Positions 4,779 to 7,463 of a DNA stretch of 11,731 nt are shown piece after piece. How positions within the stretch are numbered: the stretch's first letter is position 1; each line of letters starts with the position of its first letter. The DNA is from Candidatus Bipolaricaulia bacterium (lineage in GTDB: Bacteria; Bipolaricaulota; Bipolaricaulia; JBHIAT01), in contig JBHIAT010000120.1 of the NCBI GenBank assembly GCA_046758705.1, positions 1 through 11,731 on the forward strand. Direction: 5' to 3'. The notes below the pieces were generated by a model, which saw only the letters and a program-made list of their open reading frames with translations, did no database searches and was not told where the DNA came from. The position numbers and the translations under genes are program-made.

Positions 4779-5360
4779 CTAAATATCGACCGGCTCTCCT
4801 TGGTCGTTGATGTGCCTGCCGTCCGGGGTCAGGTAGATGTTGTGATCGATCCCCTTCCAGTAACTGCCTTTGTCGATCGACTTATCGACCAGCAGCCGGC
4901 CGTCGACCGCCAGCGTCATCAGGAAGAACGGCAGCGGCAGCGGCGCCGGCCCATTAATAACGGAGCCGTCCCGGGCGAACACGCTCCCGTGACACGGGCA
5001 TTCGAAACGCAATCTGGTTGAGCTCCACTTCGGCTTACAGCCCAGATGAGTACAAACGTTGGAGATCGCCTGGAATCCCAATTCAGCTCGAAAGACGAAG
5101 ACCCGTTGGTCCCCCATGTCTCCGATGTCCCCGATCTGAAAGTCGGAGGGCTGCCCCGCGGAAAAGATCGGCGAGGATTCAAAGGTGATGCTGGGGTAGA
5201 AGAGTCCGACACCCCAGGCTGTAACGGTCCCCAGAACCAACGTGAGCGATCCCAAACCGAGGCGGGCGAAGAACCGCCGGCGGGTGATCTGCTGGGCTTC
5301 CTTCGGGATACCTGAAAATAGCTCCGGCTGCTCCGGCCTTCTCTCTAGCTCGCTTCCCAC
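4779..5360 (-). CDS. Rieske [2Fe-2S] protein of Rieske/cytochrome b type (PetC/QcrA-like) with Tat anchor
   Basis: TRRRFF twin-arginine motif followed by a hydrophobic helix; CTHLGC and CPCHGS boxes; GPAPLPL loop. GTG start preceded by GAAGGAAGG. Confidence 0.93.
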   Translation of the reverse strand: MGSELERRPEQPELFSGIPKEAQQITRRRFFARLGLGSLTLVLGTVTAWGVGLFYPSITFESSPIFSAGQPSDFQIGDIGDMGDQRVFVFRAELGFQAISNVCTHLGCKPKWSSTRLRFECPCHGSVFARDGSVINGPAPLPLPFFLMTLAVDGRLLVDKSIDKGSYWKGIDHNIYLTPDGRHINDQGEPVDI

Positions 5361-5390
5361 ATCTGACCTTCCTTCTTCAGTACGTTGCCC

Positions 5391-5419
5391 ATTTTATGGA
5401 ACCGGATCGGATATGTCAA
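5391..5419 (-). promoter_or_regulatory. sigma70 promoter of the Rieske-cytb-rnf operon
   Basis: Minus strand TTGACA (5419-5414), 17 bp, TAAAAT (5396-5391), 30 bp upstream of the Rieske GTG. Confidence 0.75.
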
Positions 5420-5534
5420 GGATACAGATCGATCCGACTTTAGTTCGGCGTAGCTTTCCGTTTCTAAGTAATCCTCTTGACAAATTTATACAATCCAACC
5501 CCATTATACTATGACCGACGTCATTCCAAAATAT

Positions 5535-5549
5535 GATATGAATCATATC
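5535..5549. promoter_or_regulatory. Palindromic candidate operator GATATGA-A-TCATATC
   Basis: Perfect 7-1-7 inverted repeat in the AT-rich region between the divergent promoters. Confidence 0.4.
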
Positions 5550-5564
5550 TTGATTTGAGTTCCT

Positions 5565-5594
5565 TTGACAGGTGATCCGACGGTGAGCTATAGT
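5565..5594 (+). promoter_or_regulatory. sigma70 promoter of the aldehyde dehydrogenase gene
   Basis: TTGACA (5565-5570), 18 bp, TATAGT (5589-5594). Followed by a purine-rich RBS (GGAAGGAAGGAAAGGG) and ATG at 5639. Confidence 0.65.
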
Positions 5595-5648
5595 AATGTT
5601 AGAATTAGGGATCTGGAAGGAAGGAAAGGGAACTATTCATGGAGATTT

Positions 5649-5902
5649 GTGACGCTCCACGCACTAAAGTACGTGGCTTCTCGCTTCACAGACGGAACTT
5701 GCACAAGCAGAGGTTCTCGTCTCCACGCAGGCCGCGCCCGGCCTGGTACACACAGCATTTTAGTTTCTTTAGGCCAGGCTTGGTGGCGGTTAGCTTCTGT
5801 CTCGCTGAACCGCAAAACGCTGGCAAAATACACCTGGCTATACCCACAACGTTTTACGTTGCGCAGGGTTGTGGCAACAACCCCCTACGTTGTCAAAGAC
5901 CT
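5649..5902 (-). ncRNA. Putative TnpB omegaRNA (reRNA)-like structured RNA
   Basis: Lies downstream of an internal promoter, is rich in hairpins (5691-5721, 5786-5813, 5847-5861, 5866-5883) and ends exactly at the IS right end TCAC. The 5' end is estimated from the -10 position. Confidence 0.6.
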
Positions 5903-5908
5903 ATGGTG

Positions 5909-5937
5909 GTTATACCACATGCAGGAGGGGAAGTCAA
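5909..5937 (-). promoter_or_regulatory. sigma70 promoter inside the IS element
   Basis: Minus strand TTGACT (5937-5932), 17 bp, TATAAC (5914-5909), just inside the left-end hairpin. Confidence 0.7.
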
Positions 5938-5987
5938 GGGCGGCTGTATCCGCGCACTAAAAGTACGCGGTTTTAGCCGCTGAAAGA

Positions 5988-7463
5988 ATGAATAAGAATC
6001 TGATCGGTGGCCAATGGGTTGAGGCCGAGGGAGGGGGTACGTTCGAGTCACGCAATCCGGCTGACACCTCCGACCTGATCGGGGTATTTCCCGACTCCGA
6101 CAAACACGATGTCGCGCGGGCGGTGGCGGCGGCCGACGAGGCATTTTTCGATTGGAAGCAGTTTCCAGCCCCCAGGCGGGCGGAGATCCTGTTTGAAGCT
6201 GCCGAGGTGCTGAAGCGGAAGAAAGAGGAGCTCTCGAAGTTGATGACCCGGGAGATGGGCAAGGTGCTCAACGAGGCGCGCGGCGATGTCCAGGAGGGGG
6301 TCGACATGACTTACTACATCGCCGGGGAGGGCCGTCGGCTTCACGGCTACACCACCAAAGCCGAACTTCCCAACAAGGCGACGTACGCGCGCCGAGAGCC
6401 GATCGGCCGCATCGCTGTCATAACCCCGTGGAATTTCCCGCTGGCGATTCCCACCTGGAAGCTGATGCCGGCACTGGTGGCCGGCAACACGGTCGTGTGG
6501 AAACCGGCCACAGACACGCCCCGTCTCGCATACGAACTGGCGGTGTTGCTCCAGGAGGCCGGACTCCCGGACGGGGTGCTCAACGTCGTCTTCGGCCACG
6601 GCAAGCGTGTCGGCCAACCGCTCGTCGAGCACGAAAAGATCGATATGCTCACGTTTACCGGATCGACCGAAGTCGGCAGACACCTGTACCGGGTTGCGGC
6701 GGACAAACTGAACGTGGTGCATCTGGAGATGGGCGGCAAAAATCCGCTCATCGTCATGGACGATGCCGACCTCGACCTGGCGCTGGACGGGATCATTTGG
6801 GGCGCGTTCGGGACGACCGGACAGCGCTGCACCGCCGCCAGCCGAATCATCGTTCACAAAGGGGTCATCGGCGAAGTGATCGAACGGCTCGTCACCGCCA
6901 CTAAACAGCTCAAGGTCGGAAACGGCCTCGACGAGGAGATCGACGTGGGACCGGTCATCAACAAGGCCCAGCTGGATACGATTCACCACTATGTTGAGAT
7001 CGGTCAACAGGGGGGAGCTGAGCTCCTGTGCGGCGGTCGAGTCCTCGACTCGGGGTCCTACGTGAACGGTTACTTCTACGAGCCGACGGTGTTCGCTGGC
7101 GTCACCCCGGAGATGAGGATCTTCAAGGAGGAAATCTTCGGGCCGGTCGCGGTGGTGGTAGAAGCTCAAGACTACGAGGATGCGATCCGGATCGCCAACA
7201 ACACCGACTACGGTCTGTCGTCGGCGATCTACACCCGGGACGTCAACCTGGCGCATCGGGCGATGGACGATCTGGAGGCGGGAATCGTCTATATCAACAG
7301 CAGCACGATCGGTGCCGAGATCCATCTGCCGTTCGGCGGGGTCAAGGGAACCGGGAACGGGCATCGGGAGGCGGGTCAGGCTGCGCTCGAGACCTACACC
7401 GAGTGGAAGGCAGTGTATATCGACTACAGCGGCAGACTCCAGAAGGCCCAGGGGATCGAATAG
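5988..7463 (+). CDS. NAD(P)-dependent aldehyde dehydrogenase family protein (original start probably 5639, interrupted by IS element)
   Basis: ITPWNFP, WKPA, FTGSTEVG, LEMGGKN (catalytic Glu), GQRCTA (catalytic Cys), EEIFGPV, LPFGGVK. Substrate cannot be assigned. Confidence 0.95.
   Translation: MNKNLIGGQWVEAEGGGTFESRNPADTSDLIGVFPDSDKHDVARAVAAADEAFFDWKQFPAPRRAEILFEAAEVLKRKKEELSKLMTREMGKVLNEARGDVQEGVDMTYYIAGEGRRLHGYTTKAELPNKATYARREPIGRIAVITPWNFPLAIPTWKLMPALVAGNTVVWKPATDTPRLAYELAVLLQEAGLPDGVLNVVFGHGKRVGQPLVEHEKIDMLTFTGSTEVGRHLYRVAADKLNVVHLEMGGKNPLIVMDDADLDLALDGIIWGAFGTTGQRCTAASRIIVHKGVIGEVIERLVTATKQLKVGNGLDEEIDVGPVINKAQLDTIHHYVEIGQQGGAELLCGGRVLDSGSYVNGYFYEPTVFAGVTPEMRIFKEEIFGPVAVVVEAQDYEDAIRIANNTDYGLSSAIYTRDVNLAHRAMDDLEAGIVYINSSTIGAEIHLPFGGVKGTGNGHREAGQAALETYTEWKAVYIDYSGRLQKAQGIE

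What the first reader, a model, noticed from the sequence alone, without database searches (positions are those of the whole stretch)
5649..5991. 343-bp non-autonomous IS200/IS605 element whose ends obey the guide/cleavage-site pairing rule
Seen (minus strand): TTAT | 17 nt - AAAA - CCGCGTAC TTTTA GTGCGCGG ... GAAG - CCACGTAC TTTA GTGCGTGG - AGCG - TCAC |. Known: in IS608, guide AAAG selects TTAC and guide GAAT selects TCAA. By the same rule AAAA selects TTAT and GAAG selects TCAC, exactly as found. These boundaries independently match those that restore the ALDH frame. No transposase is encoded, so mobilisation would need a TnpA (HUH Y1) in trans. Standard annotation would miss it.
Basis: partly seen in the sequence, partly recalled or inferred. 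Interest (0 to 1): 0.75.

Follow-up and report, generated by a model that had tools for sequence, protein, structure and literature searches.

The report
Guide-RNA mini-transposon splitting a dehydrogenase gene
A 343-base, protein-less jumping element of the IS200/IS605 kind has recently landed in the start of an aldehyde dehydrogenase gene of an uncultured vent bacterium; it is a known kind of element with its own promoter and a folded guide-type RNA, but the RNA's first hairpin, shared with mini-elements in distant bacteria, is unexplained.

Summary
A metagenome contig from a sister strain joins window 5648 directly to 5992, skipping exactly 343 bases. That is a natural empty site with no target duplication. 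The element is multi-copy in its genome: about 4 copies of this subfamily and 10-11 of a sister subfamily, each with different flanks. All four left ends of this subfamily lie 3' of TTAT. Both ends obey the published IS608 guide/cleavage pairing, and that pairing covaries in related elements of other genomes.

It is a non-autonomous IS200/IS605 element (PATE). Three intact Y1 TnpA genes and 23 TnpB hits lie elsewhere in the genome.

The last ~115 nt resemble the ends of tnpB elements, so this is most likely a stand-alone TnpB guide RNA. That kind is already described, and this scan found it before on other DNA.

Unexplained: a 5' hairpin, the best-conserved part, found only in protein-less elements of eight assemblies from at least two phyla, and absent from Rfam.

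The parts
5992..5995 (-). TTAT: target and left cleavage site (it would also be the TnpB TAM); stays in the flank
   Evidence: The joint 5648|5992 in the empty-site contig places it outside the element. TTAT precedes 4 of 4 left ends of this subfamily.
5946..5991 (-). Left end: 17-nt spacer (5991-5975), guide AAAA (5974-5971), imperfect hairpin (5970-5950), ATAC (5949-5946)
   Evidence: ATAC 3' of the left hairpin is also named for IS608. The left end of the C185 tnpB element is homologous.
5909..5937 (-). Promoter-like site: TTGACT (5937-5932), 17-nt spacer, TG-n-TATAAC (-10 at 5914-5909)
   Evidence: Read. The hexamers sit at the same place in the other subfamilies, where three carry TATAAT. 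The scan tool did NOT list this copy, because its -10 ends in C.
5841..5901 (-). 5' hairpin domain of the RNA: helix alpha, internal loop, helix beta, C-rich loop
   Evidence: 22 sequences, 97.4% of cells paired, 11 of 16 pairs changed on both sides, 0 of 500 shuffles as good. It is the most conserved part among the genome's subfamilies, with mean identity 0.90.
5762..5840 (-). Middle domain of the RNA (long stem with an inner hairpin), specific to this genome's elements
   Evidence: Helices 4 and 6, each with compensatory changes. In other genomes this part is replaced by other sequence.
5649..5761 (-). TnpB-type guide-RNA scaffold (~113 nt). It contains the right end: guide GAAG (5680-5677), hairpin (5676-5657), AGCG, TCAC (5652-5649)
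   Evidence: nhmmer matches to the 3' ends of tnpB elements C274, C185, C24, C14, C33. A coding remnant is detectable. Helices 7-12 covary. AUGCU pairs with AGCGU just before TCAC, the same layout as the ISDra2 pseudoknot described.
5629..5648 (-). Flank that would be read as the 3' guide; it is antisense to the original ALDH start codon and ribosome-binding site
   Evidence: Inferred from the anatomy. No terminator-like site was found in 5350-6100.
5988..7463 (+). Aldehyde dehydrogenase ORF as it now stands (491 aa). Its ATG (5988-5990) and the next base lie inside the element's left end
   Evidence: Pfam Aldedh, E 3.4e-180.
5565..5648 (+). Cut-off original ALDH front: promoter-like site (5565-5594), purine-rich stretch, original ATG at 5639
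   Evidence: Promoter scan, 11 of 12 matches.

Best explanation
Window 5649-5991 (top strand = window minus strand) is a protein-less IS200/IS605 derivative, a PATE-type mini-transposon. It inserted recently, 3' of TTAT, into codon 4 of an aldehyde dehydrogenase gene.

Shown: exact boundaries, absence of target duplication, an empty site in a sister strain, many copies, and ends built like IS608 ends.

Inferred: a Y1 TnpA encoded elsewhere binds the two subterminal hairpins on the top strand. It finds its cut sites through the 4-nt guides (AAAA with TTAT, GAAG with TCAC). It excises the strand as a circle and pastes it 3' of another TTAT.

The interior is an RNA gene. A sigma-70-like promoter next to the left hairpin would drive a ~255-nt structured RNA that runs through the right end into the flank. 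Its last ~115 nt are a TnpB-type guide-RNA (omega RNA) scaffold. The following ~16-20 flank bases would then serve as guide. A TnpB made by one of the genome's tnpB elements would cut the TTAT-plus-flank joint left after excision, so that the element is copied back. This is the published homing model, applied in trans.

The 5' 60-nt hairpin is a conserved extra domain of unknown role. My guess is that it gives stability, or an advantage in loading onto TnpB, to an RNA that starts at its own promoter rather than being cut out of a tnpB mRNA.
For: Transposon:
- Empty-site contig.
- 24 matches in the own genome; about 4 copies of subfamily A and 6 complete identical copies of subfamily B, plus 4 left-end and 4 right-end fragments at contig ends.
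- Flanks differ immediately outside TTAT and TCAC.
- The pairing scheme is as in IS608.
- In 31 related elements, a right end obeying the rule was found automatically in 21, against 3 of 620 shuffled segments. A left end obeying it was found in 19 of 31, against 40 of 620.
- The guide/site combinations covary: GAAG/TCAC, GAAT/TCAA, CAAG/TGAC at the right end; AAAA/TTAT, AAAG/TTAC, GAAA/TCAT, CAAA/TGAT at the left end.
- Three intact Y1 TnpA genes are present.

RNA:
- 78 pairs, 94.1% of cells paired, 17 pairs changed on both sides, 0 of 500 shuffles as good; slid controls pair only 36-44%.
- Frequent G-U pairs fix the strand as the one the promoter serves.
- The 3' part is homologous to tnpB 3' ends.
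- The C185 TnpB resembles ISDra2 TnpB (E 1.7e-58), and in the one alignment printed (to the related chain 9yyg_A) the stretches with the RuvC acidic residues align.
- The ISDra2 scaffold is 116 nt, with a pseudoknot between -5..-3 and -105..-103. Here AUGCU and AGCGU pair about 106 nt apart.
- Stand-alone guide RNAs that act in trans are in print.
Against: - There is no expression data.
- This copy's -10 is TATAAC and fails the consensus scan.
- No tnpA-bearing element with these hairpins was found.
- Which of the 23 TnpB hits, if any, binds this RNA is unknown.
- The 5' 150 nt have no counterpart in any tnpB or iscB element of this genome. All 12 model hits are protein-less elements.
- One genome (G050, 85% complete) has 4 such elements but no detectable TnpB, OrfB or Y1 TnpA.
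- In this genome a 9-bp helix (CAGCGUUUU with AAAAUGCUG, 100% paired, 2 compensatory pairs) competes for the strand that the TnpB-type pseudoknot would need.
- Some related elements have only ~85 nt between the 5' hairpin and the end. That is short for a scaffold unless the hairpin is part of it.
Confidence: 0.75

Rival explanations
1. It is the same mini-transposon, but the RNA's real business is the conserved 5' hairpin domain, which works without TnpB. It could be a protein-binding or regulatory RNA, or a structure of the single-stranded DNA intermediate. On this view the IS200/IS605 ends are only its vehicle, and they are swapped for whichever ends the local transposase can move.
For: - The 5' hairpin is the best-conserved part (mean identity 0.90, against 0.63 for the TnpB-type scaffold).
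- It covaries strongly across eight assemblies.
- It is joined to at least four unrelated right-end types: two tnpB types and a C207 type in this genome, and an iscB-type end elsewhere.
- It was never seen inside a nuclease-bearing element.
- G050 has the elements but no TnpB hit.
Against: - The RE-proximal hairpins keep their pairing through compensatory changes although nothing is coded there (helices 7-10). This argues that the TnpB-type scaffold is itself under selection.
- The RNA has no terminator before the end, as a guide RNA needs.
- G050 is only 85% complete, and repeats are often lost from such assemblies.
Confidence: 0.17
2. It is a decaying, functionless leftover of a tnpB element. 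The ends still allow passive mobilisation, but the interior RNA does nothing.
For: - Copies without the interior exist: C80, an internal-deletion derivative also seen in reads as the 5759-5954 joint, and C297.
- This copy's -10 box is imperfect.
Against: - Covariation is seen in both the 5' and the 3' parts.
- The 5' hairpin is conserved between phyla.
- Promoter hexamers are retained in every subfamily although the surrounding sequence is only 43% identical.
- The interior-bearing forms have the most copies.
Confidence: 0.05
3. The structured RNA lies on the other strand and is an IscB-type (HEARO) guide RNA that starts at the right end and reads inward.
For: - A weak HEARO match (21.3 bits; gathering score 83) lies on the bottom strand of a related element, L084.
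- The own genome has 7 IscB-type (RRXRR) hits.
Against: - The match covers only the antisense right-end hairpin and the first helix.
- The window region has no Rfam match at E up to 1.
- Genuine HEARO RNAs of this genome and of two others end about 20 nt before iscB and do not contain the hairpin.
- The many U-G and G-U pairs would be A-C mismatches on the other strand.
- The RE-proximal part of this element is derived from tnpB.
Confidence: 0.02

Closest known systems
PATE-like protein-less IS200/IS605 elements and stand-alone omega RNAs. Sources: Meers et al. 2023 preprint, PMC10055086, passages read; Altae-Tran et al. 2023, PMC10691335, passages read
   Same: It has left and right ends but no gene. 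It is presumably mobilised in trans by a Y1 TnpA. It carries a guide-RNA scaffold at the right end for a nuclease encoded elsewhere. It is multi-copy in a genome rich in tnpB.
   Different: The RNA begins with a ~60-nt hairpin domain (plus a middle domain) that is absent from all nuclease-bearing elements I could examine. That domain is shared by protein-less elements of Bipolaricaulota, Actinomycetota and an unclassified bacterium. The passages I read mention no such domain. I did not see those papers' extended-data figures or supplements, which may show PATE anatomy.
IS608 of Helicobacter pylori: end architecture and guide/cleavage pairing (He et al. 2011, PMC3201880, passages read)
   Same: Subterminal imperfect hairpins. 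A 4-nt guide 5' of each hairpin foot pairs with a 4-nt cleavage site by the same scheme. ATAC follows the left hairpin and AG follows the right hairpin. Insertion is 3' of the left site without duplication.
   Different: The sites are TTAT and TCAC instead of TTAC and TCAA. The distances differ: 21 nt from the cut to the left hairpin foot instead of 19, and the right site begins 4 nt after the foot instead of 10. There is no tnpA or tnpB.
ISDra2 TnpB guide RNA (Nakagawa et al. 2023, PMC10097598, passages read)
   Same: The 3' guide lies outside the right end. The scaffold is about 115 nt, with bases just before the guide pairing ~100 nt upstream. A 5' extension is present, which in ISDra2 is dispensable. 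The genome's C185 TnpB is a close relative of ISDra2 TnpB.
   Different: In ISDra2 the RNA overlaps the tnpB reading frame and is cut out of a longer transcript. Here it stands alone behind its own promoter, and the 5' extension is a conserved hairpin rather than coding sequence.
HEARO / IscB guide RNA (Rfam RF02033)
   Same: It is an RNA of an IS200/IS605-family element that contains the right-end hairpin. Related mini-elements in two genomes (L084, and the G050 copies) use an iscB-type right end ending in TTGAC.
   Different: It lies on the opposite strand, with the guide at the 5' end. This window has no match. Genuine HEAROs of the same genome are unrelated in sequence.

Membership tests
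IS200/IS605 family, non-autonomous derivative (PATE) | Subterminal imperfect hairpins at both ends, similar to each other, on one strand | tested here: met
   Both are 8-bp stems with a conserved T-G mismatch. Stem changes are compensated between subfamilies, e.g. CCACG..CGTGG against CCCCG..CGGGG.
IS200/IS605 family, non-autonomous derivative (PATE) | Insertion 3' of a fixed short site, no target duplication, and scarless empty site | tested here: met
   The X4 contig joins 5648 to 5992. TTAT precedes 4 of 4 subfamily-A left ends. The restored reading frame matches orthologue N-termini.
IS200/IS605 family, non-autonomous derivative (PATE) | Cleavage sites specified by 4-nt guides 5' of the hairpins (IS608 scheme) | tested here: met
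   AAAA/TTAT and GAAG/TCAC fit the scheme read. Covariation across 31 related elements: right end 21 of 31 against 3 of 620 shuffles; left end 19 of 31 against 40 of 620. Two right ends break the rule at one position (L085, L091). Boundaries outside this genome are inferred, not shown by empty sites.
IS200/IS605 family, non-autonomous derivative (PATE) | No transposase gene of its own, and several copies in the genome | tested here: met
   No Pfam family in the 3 overlapping ORFs. 24 matches in 21 contigs.
IS200/IS605 family, non-autonomous derivative (PATE) | A Y1 (HUH) TnpA in the same genome able to act on these ends | tested here: inconclusive
   Six Y1_Tnp hits, three of them intact genes of 131-144 aa. 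The C207 element uses TTAT/AAAA and GAAG/TCAC as well, but none of the tnpA elements has these hairpin sequences. The assembly is 93.9% complete in 319 contigs.
IS200/IS605 family, non-autonomous derivative (PATE) | Excision as a single-stranded circle and re-integration | not testable with these tools
   Needs an excision or circle-junction assay.
Stand-alone TnpB guide RNA (omega RNA) | Scaffold abuts the right end with the guide outside it, and is homologous to the 3' end of tnpB elements | tested here: met
   nhmmer: C274 E 2e-10, C185 9e-6, C24/C14/C33 about 1e-4, all to model positions ~240-348. tblastn of the C274 TnpB C-terminus on the C244 element gives 22 aa at 77% identity, E 5e-8.
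Stand-alone TnpB guide RNA (omega RNA) | Conserved secondary structure with a pseudoknot next to the guide | tested here: inconclusive
   Helices 7-12 covary. The AUGCU/AGCGU pairing predicted varies only by one-sided changes, and it competes with a 9-bp helix to the 5' domain.
Stand-alone TnpB guide RNA (omega RNA) | Transcribed, bound by TnpB, and directs cleavage next to the TAM | not testable with these tools
   No RNA run was available for this DNA. Needs RNA-seq, RIP and cleavage assays.
HEARO / IscB guide RNA (RF02033) | Match to the covariance model, upstream of iscB, on the strand reading inward from the right end | tested here: not met
   No Rfam match in 5300-6300 at E up to 1. Six genuine HEAROs elsewhere do not contain the hairpin.

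The most novel reading that the evidence does not exclude
The 60-nt 5' hairpin has this layout: helix, asymmetric internal loop AUGRGGU/UAAAA, helix, then a C-rich loop. It may define a previously undescribed family of structured RNAs that live only in protein-less IS200/IS605 mini-transposons. That family crosses at least two phyla (Bipolaricaulota and Actinomycetota) and changes its transposon ends and guide-RNA scaffold to suit the local transposase and nuclease. On this reading it is a parasite of the parasite, with its own conserved RNA module. That module could capture TnpB or IscB better than the parent's RNA does, or it could do something unrelated to them.
Probability: 0.35. Interest if true: 0.65.

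Novelty: new variant of a known kind. Interest (0 to 1): 0.5.

Why it matters
It has an exact empty site in a wild population. Guide/cleavage covariation is seen for seven guide/site combinations. The insertion also donates a new start codon to the gene it hit.

For the field of transposon-encoded guide RNAs, protein-less elements that borrow TnpB are known but little studied. Here their RNAs share a strongly covarying 5' domain that the nuclease-encoding parents lack. That gives a concrete handle on two open questions: how such hitch-hikers compete for the nuclease, and whether they have another function.

The practical gain is small. Annotation pipelines should expect RNA genes inside such 'intergenic repeats'.

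Tried and rejected
1. Rfam 15: no match in window 5300-6300 at E up to 1. In three related loci the only relevant match was a weak HEARO hit, which proved to be the antisense right end.
2. Exact scans for a 23-mer and a 21-mer of the RNA found nothing: 0 in genome contigs and 0 in metagenome contigs. A degenerate pattern then found 10 loci in 4 assemblies and 1 metagenome contig.
3. I looked for an empty site in related genomes. The nearest genomes held are only 'same class', so only the ALDH coding part aligned. The reads solved this instead.
4. My first fold of the 5' motif, two separate hairpins, was rejected. Changes in other genomes break it and support the nested alpha/beta hairpin.
5. 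I tested whether the 5' 150 nt derive from a tnpB gene. tblastn with two TnpB proteins and nhmmer over the genome gave nothing beyond the last ~100 nt. A 7-mer shared with tnpB looked like chance.
6. I tested whether the hairpin is a 3' extension of the IscB RNA. It is not.
7. Model hit G023 (E 1e-5) looks like an ordinary promoter, so I do not count it as a member.
8. The 3' part of the short elements of G153 was found only in other protein-less copies.
9. No RNA holder was listed for this DNA, so expression could not be examined.
10. I could not assign the cognate TnpA. The ends of the tnpA elements C27, C207 and C257 differ in hairpin sequence.
None of the passages I read describes the 5' hairpin. 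Keyword searches cannot exclude that it is in print or in supplements I could not open.
Full report
OBSERVATION

TTAT lies at 5995-5992. The element starts at 5991 with a 17-nt spacer, then AAAA (5974-5971), then the hairpin CCGCGTAC-TTTTA-GTGCGCGG (5970-5950). At the other end come GAAG (5680-5677), the hairpin CCACGTAC-TTTA-GTGCGTGG (5676-5657), AGCG, and TCAC (5652-5649). Both hairpins are the minimum-energy folds of the single DNA strand. The left one is clearly better than shuffles (3 of 200 as good). The right one is not (27 of 200), so fold energy alone proves little.

THE BOUNDARIES ARE EXACT

The genome is a 319-contig assembly, 93.9% complete. No genome closer than 'same class' is held, so an orthologous empty site could not be sought in genomes. 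Public reads gave it instead. Four DNA runs of one study of hydrothermal-vent metagenomes hold this stretch. In X1-X3, contigs cross both junctions of the filled site. In X4, a 560-nt contig (depth 5.8, 12 differing letters) joins 5648 directly to 5992. It skips 343 bases, with no base shared between the two sides of the joint.

So a sister strain has the uninterrupted site. The element is exactly 5649-5991, TTAT belongs to the target, and nothing was duplicated. The rejoined sequence reads ATG GAG ATT TAT AAG, that is M-E-I-Y-K-N-L-I-G-G-Q-W. Two distant orthologues begin M-R-Y-K-N-W-I-G-G and M-K-Y-K-N-W-I-G-G. The interrupted gene is an aldehyde dehydrogenase (Pfam Aldedh, E 3.4e-180).

IT IS A MULTI-COPY MOBILE ELEMENT

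BLAST of the element on its own genome gives 24 matches in 21 contigs.

- Subfamily A, which includes this copy, has a second full copy at 99% identity (C45) and an internally deleted copy (C80). It also has a left end and a right end at the ends of contigs C2 and C273. The C80-type deletion also appears as a joint in the reads (5759 to 5954).
- Subfamily B has a different left end but the same interior and right end. It has six identical complete copies, four right-end fragments and four left-end fragments at contig ends.
- Single divergent members lie in C106, C244, C159 and C144.

All 14 right ends found by a hairpin regex are followed by AGCGTCAC and then by unrelated sequence. All four subfamily-A left ends follow TTAT. 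The C80 copy sits in frame inside what reads like a short-chain dehydrogenase tail. The family therefore hits genes.

THE ENDS WORK LIKE IS608 ENDS

The IS608 paper (PMC3201880, passages read) states several points. The cleavage sites are recognised by four bases 5' of each hairpin foot. C-3 pairs with G-35 and T-4 with A-34, while A-2 has no partner. The two bases 3' of the right hairpin (A, G) form triples. An ATAC lies 3' of the left hairpin.

In other words, site position 1 pairs with guide position 2, site position 2 pairs with guide position 1, site position 4 pairs with guide position 4, and site position 3 is A. Applied here, AAAA gives TTAT and GAAG gives TCAC. ATAC follows the left hairpin and AG follows the right one.

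The rule also covaries. I examined 31 related elements from eight assemblies.
- An automatic scan found a right end obeying the rule in 21, against 3 of 620 shuffled segments. The combinations were GAAG/TCAC, GAAT/TCAA and CAAG/TGAC.
- Two hairpins broke the rule at one position (L085, L091). In eight, my strict hairpin filter found nothing. By eye several of those eight obey the rule too, including a GAAC/TCAG case in L128.
- At the left end, 19 of 31 had an obeying site 5-18 nt upstream, against 40 of 620 shuffles. The combinations were AAAA/TTAT, AATA/TTAT, AAAG/TTAC, GAAA/TCAT and CAAA/TGAT. A few of these 19 are probably chance hits.

Outside this genome the boundaries are inferred from the rule and from where copies diverge, not from empty sites.

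PARTNERS IN THE GENOME

There are six Y1_Tnp hits, three of them intact genes of 131, 138 and 144 aa, and 23 TnpB-type hits.

The tnpB-only element in C185 has ends homologous to this element's. Its left end reads TTAT, 16 nt, AAAA, hairpin, ATAC and then the same -35 region. Its right end reads GAAG, hairpin, AGTG, TCAC. Its TnpB is close to ISDra2 TnpB (E 1.7e-58). The alignment printed (to a related chain, 9yyg_A) lines up the three stretches that carry the RuvC acidic residues.

The tnpA+tnpB element in C207 uses the same TTAT/AAAA and GAAG/TCAC but different hairpin sequences. No tnpA element with this element's hairpins was found, so the cognate transposase is not identified.

THE INTERIOR IS AN RNA GENE

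Next to the left hairpin every subfamily has -35 and -10 hexamers 17 nt apart with a TG extension. Here they are TTGACT and TATAAC; three other subfamilies have TATAAT. This copy's -10 ends in C and is not listed by the consensus scan.

From there to the right end, six subfamily sequences support a common structure of 78 pairs. Of the cells, 94.1% are paired, and 17 pairs have changes on both sides. None of 500 shuffles is as good, and slid controls pair only 36-44%. Many pairs are G-U or U-G, which would be mismatches on the other strand. The RNA strand is therefore the one the promoter serves. No terminator-like site precedes or follows the right end, so a transcript would run into the flank.

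THE LAST ~115 nt ARE A TnpB-TYPE SCAFFOLD

A profile of the copies matches the 3' ends of tnpB elements in C274 (E 2e-10), C185 (9e-6), and C24, C14 and C33 (about 1e-4). These matches always fall over model positions ~240-348. The C244 member still translates to 22 residues of the C274 TnpB C-terminus (77% identity, E 5e-8).

The hairpins in this part keep pairing through compensatory changes, although nothing is coded here (helices 7-10). RNAalifold pairs AUGCU with AGCGU, the bases just before TCAC, about 106 nt apart. In ISDra2 the scaffold is 116 nt, and bases -5 to -3 pair with -105 to -103. Everything 5' of -116 is dispensable there (PMC10097598, passages read).

The simplest reading is a stand-alone TnpB guide RNA. 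Its guide would be the ~16-20 flank bases (5648-5629). Its target would be the TTAT-flanked joint left after excision.

Such protein-less elements and stand-alone guide RNAs are already described. Meers et al. write that PATE elements 'often encode' such RNAs to be used in trans (PMC10055086). [quoted passage not shown] Earlier reports of this scan found the same kind in other genomes.

THE UNEXPLAINED PART

The 5' 150 nt have no counterpart in any nuclease-bearing element of this genome. All 12 hits of two covariance models are the protein-less copies.

The first ~60 nt recur elsewhere. A degenerate pattern found 10 loci in four other assemblies. By their record titles these are a Candidatus Bipolaricaulota MAG, Candidatus Hakubella thermalkaliphila, an uncultured Actinomycetota MAG and an uncultured bacterium. 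It also found one metagenome contig. A model built from these sequences found 4, 10, 1 and 14 copies in those genomes. It found further members in G063, G205 and G210, out of 151 and 87 genomes sampled.

Every instance I read is a short element without an ORF. Each has a left hairpin, promoter hexamers, the motif, 85-330 nt of other sequence, and a right hairpin.

The motif folds as one long hairpin: helix alpha, an internal loop (AUGRGGU opposite UAAAA), helix beta, and a loop ACAAnCCC. On 22 sequences, 97.4% of cells pair and 11 of 16 pairs change on both sides (45 cells). None of 500 shuffles is as good, and slid controls pair 24-56%. That alignment was fitted to the model, which favours the structure.

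Within this genome the motif is the most conserved part. Mean pairwise identity is 0.90, against 0.79 for the middle, 0.63 for the TnpB-type scaffold and 0.43 for the promoter region.

The motif is joined to unrelated right-end parts: two tnpB types and a C207 type here, and iscB-type ends ending in TTGAC elsewhere. One carrier genome (G050, 85% complete) shows no TnpB, OrfB or Y1 TnpA hit.

I found no Rfam family for the motif. The passages I read do not mention it. Supplements and figures were not seen.

WHAT IT IS NOT

It is not an IscB (HEARO) RNA. The single weak HEARO match, in a related element, covers only the antisense right end. This genome has 7 IscB-type hits. Six genuine HEARO RNAs were found upstream of iscB genes (four in this genome, two in others). 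Going by the two alignments printed, they end about 20 nt before the gene and lack the hairpin. The three ORFs overlapping the element have no Pfam match.

VERDICT

The element is a recently active PATE of the IS200/IS605 family, a known kind, and very probably carries a stand-alone TnpB guide RNA, which is also known. I estimate about 0.9 that it is a PATE moved by a TnpA in trans, and about 0.6-0.7 that its RNA is used by TnpB. What goes beyond the known picture is the conserved, cross-phylum 5' hairpin domain, which is confined to the protein-less elements. Its role is open.

Noticed in passing
window 5639-5990 (+): The original ALDH start codon (5639) now opens a 114-codon frame. It reads antisense through the whole element and stops at TGA 5981-5983, 4 nt before a new ATG (5988) supplied by the element's left end. 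The new ATG restores the ALDH frame minus three residues (MNKNLIGG). Two of the three antisense frames have only one stop. Re-initiation might keep the enzyme expressed.
   Followed up: partly
G000 contig C80:9201-9349 (locus L011/L021): An internally deleted copy (left-end bases 1-38 joined to bases 233-343, with no promoter or 5' hairpin) sits in frame inside the C-terminal part of what reads like a short-chain dehydrogenase. The same deletion joint (window 5759 to 5954) appears in contigs of runs X1 and X3.
   Followed up: partly
G000 contigs C279, C183, C85, C65, C63, C42 (loci L003-L008): Subfamily B is the most numerous, with identical copies. It has a left end unrelated to its own right-end hairpin: a bulged hairpin CACCGGAC-TTCA-GTCCGCGTG with guide AATA, always preceded by TTATTAT. 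How one transposase handles two unlike hairpins is unclear.
   Followed up: partly
locus L105 941-1014 (-) (G000 contig C14): A c-di-GMP-I-GGC riboswitch (70.4 bits, above the gathering score of 59) lies about 190 nt upstream of an IscB guide RNA (HEARO, 1201-1447) and its iscB gene, on the opposite strand.
   Followed up: no
G000 contigs C1, C14, C73, C18 (two), C241, C162 (loci L102, L105-L110): The genome carries 7 IscB-type (RRXRR) hits, four of them with recognisable HEARO RNAs, beside 23 TnpB hits and 6 Y1 TnpA hits. This is an unusually rich set of IS200/IS605 elements, with at least two target motifs (TTAT and TGAT).
   Followed up: partly
G000 contig C204:556-2699 (locus L028): A serine-recombinase-like ORF (373 aa) overlaps a 399-aa ORF whose C-terminal part matches the Y1 transposase family. 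This may be a fusion or a nested insertion.
   Followed up: no
G000 contig C144:4454-4600 (locus L013): A copy of the 5' hairpin and part of the middle domain, without a left end or promoter. It is joined directly to a right end of the C207 type (…TAACTCAC) and lies behind a 21-codon coiled-coil-like mini-ORF next to msrA.
   Followed up: partly
locus L135 (G153 contig C4): Two right ends (…AGTCGTCAC and …TAGTTCAC) lie about 90 nt apart downstream of one 5' hairpin. This suggests one element inserted next to or into another.
   Followed up: no
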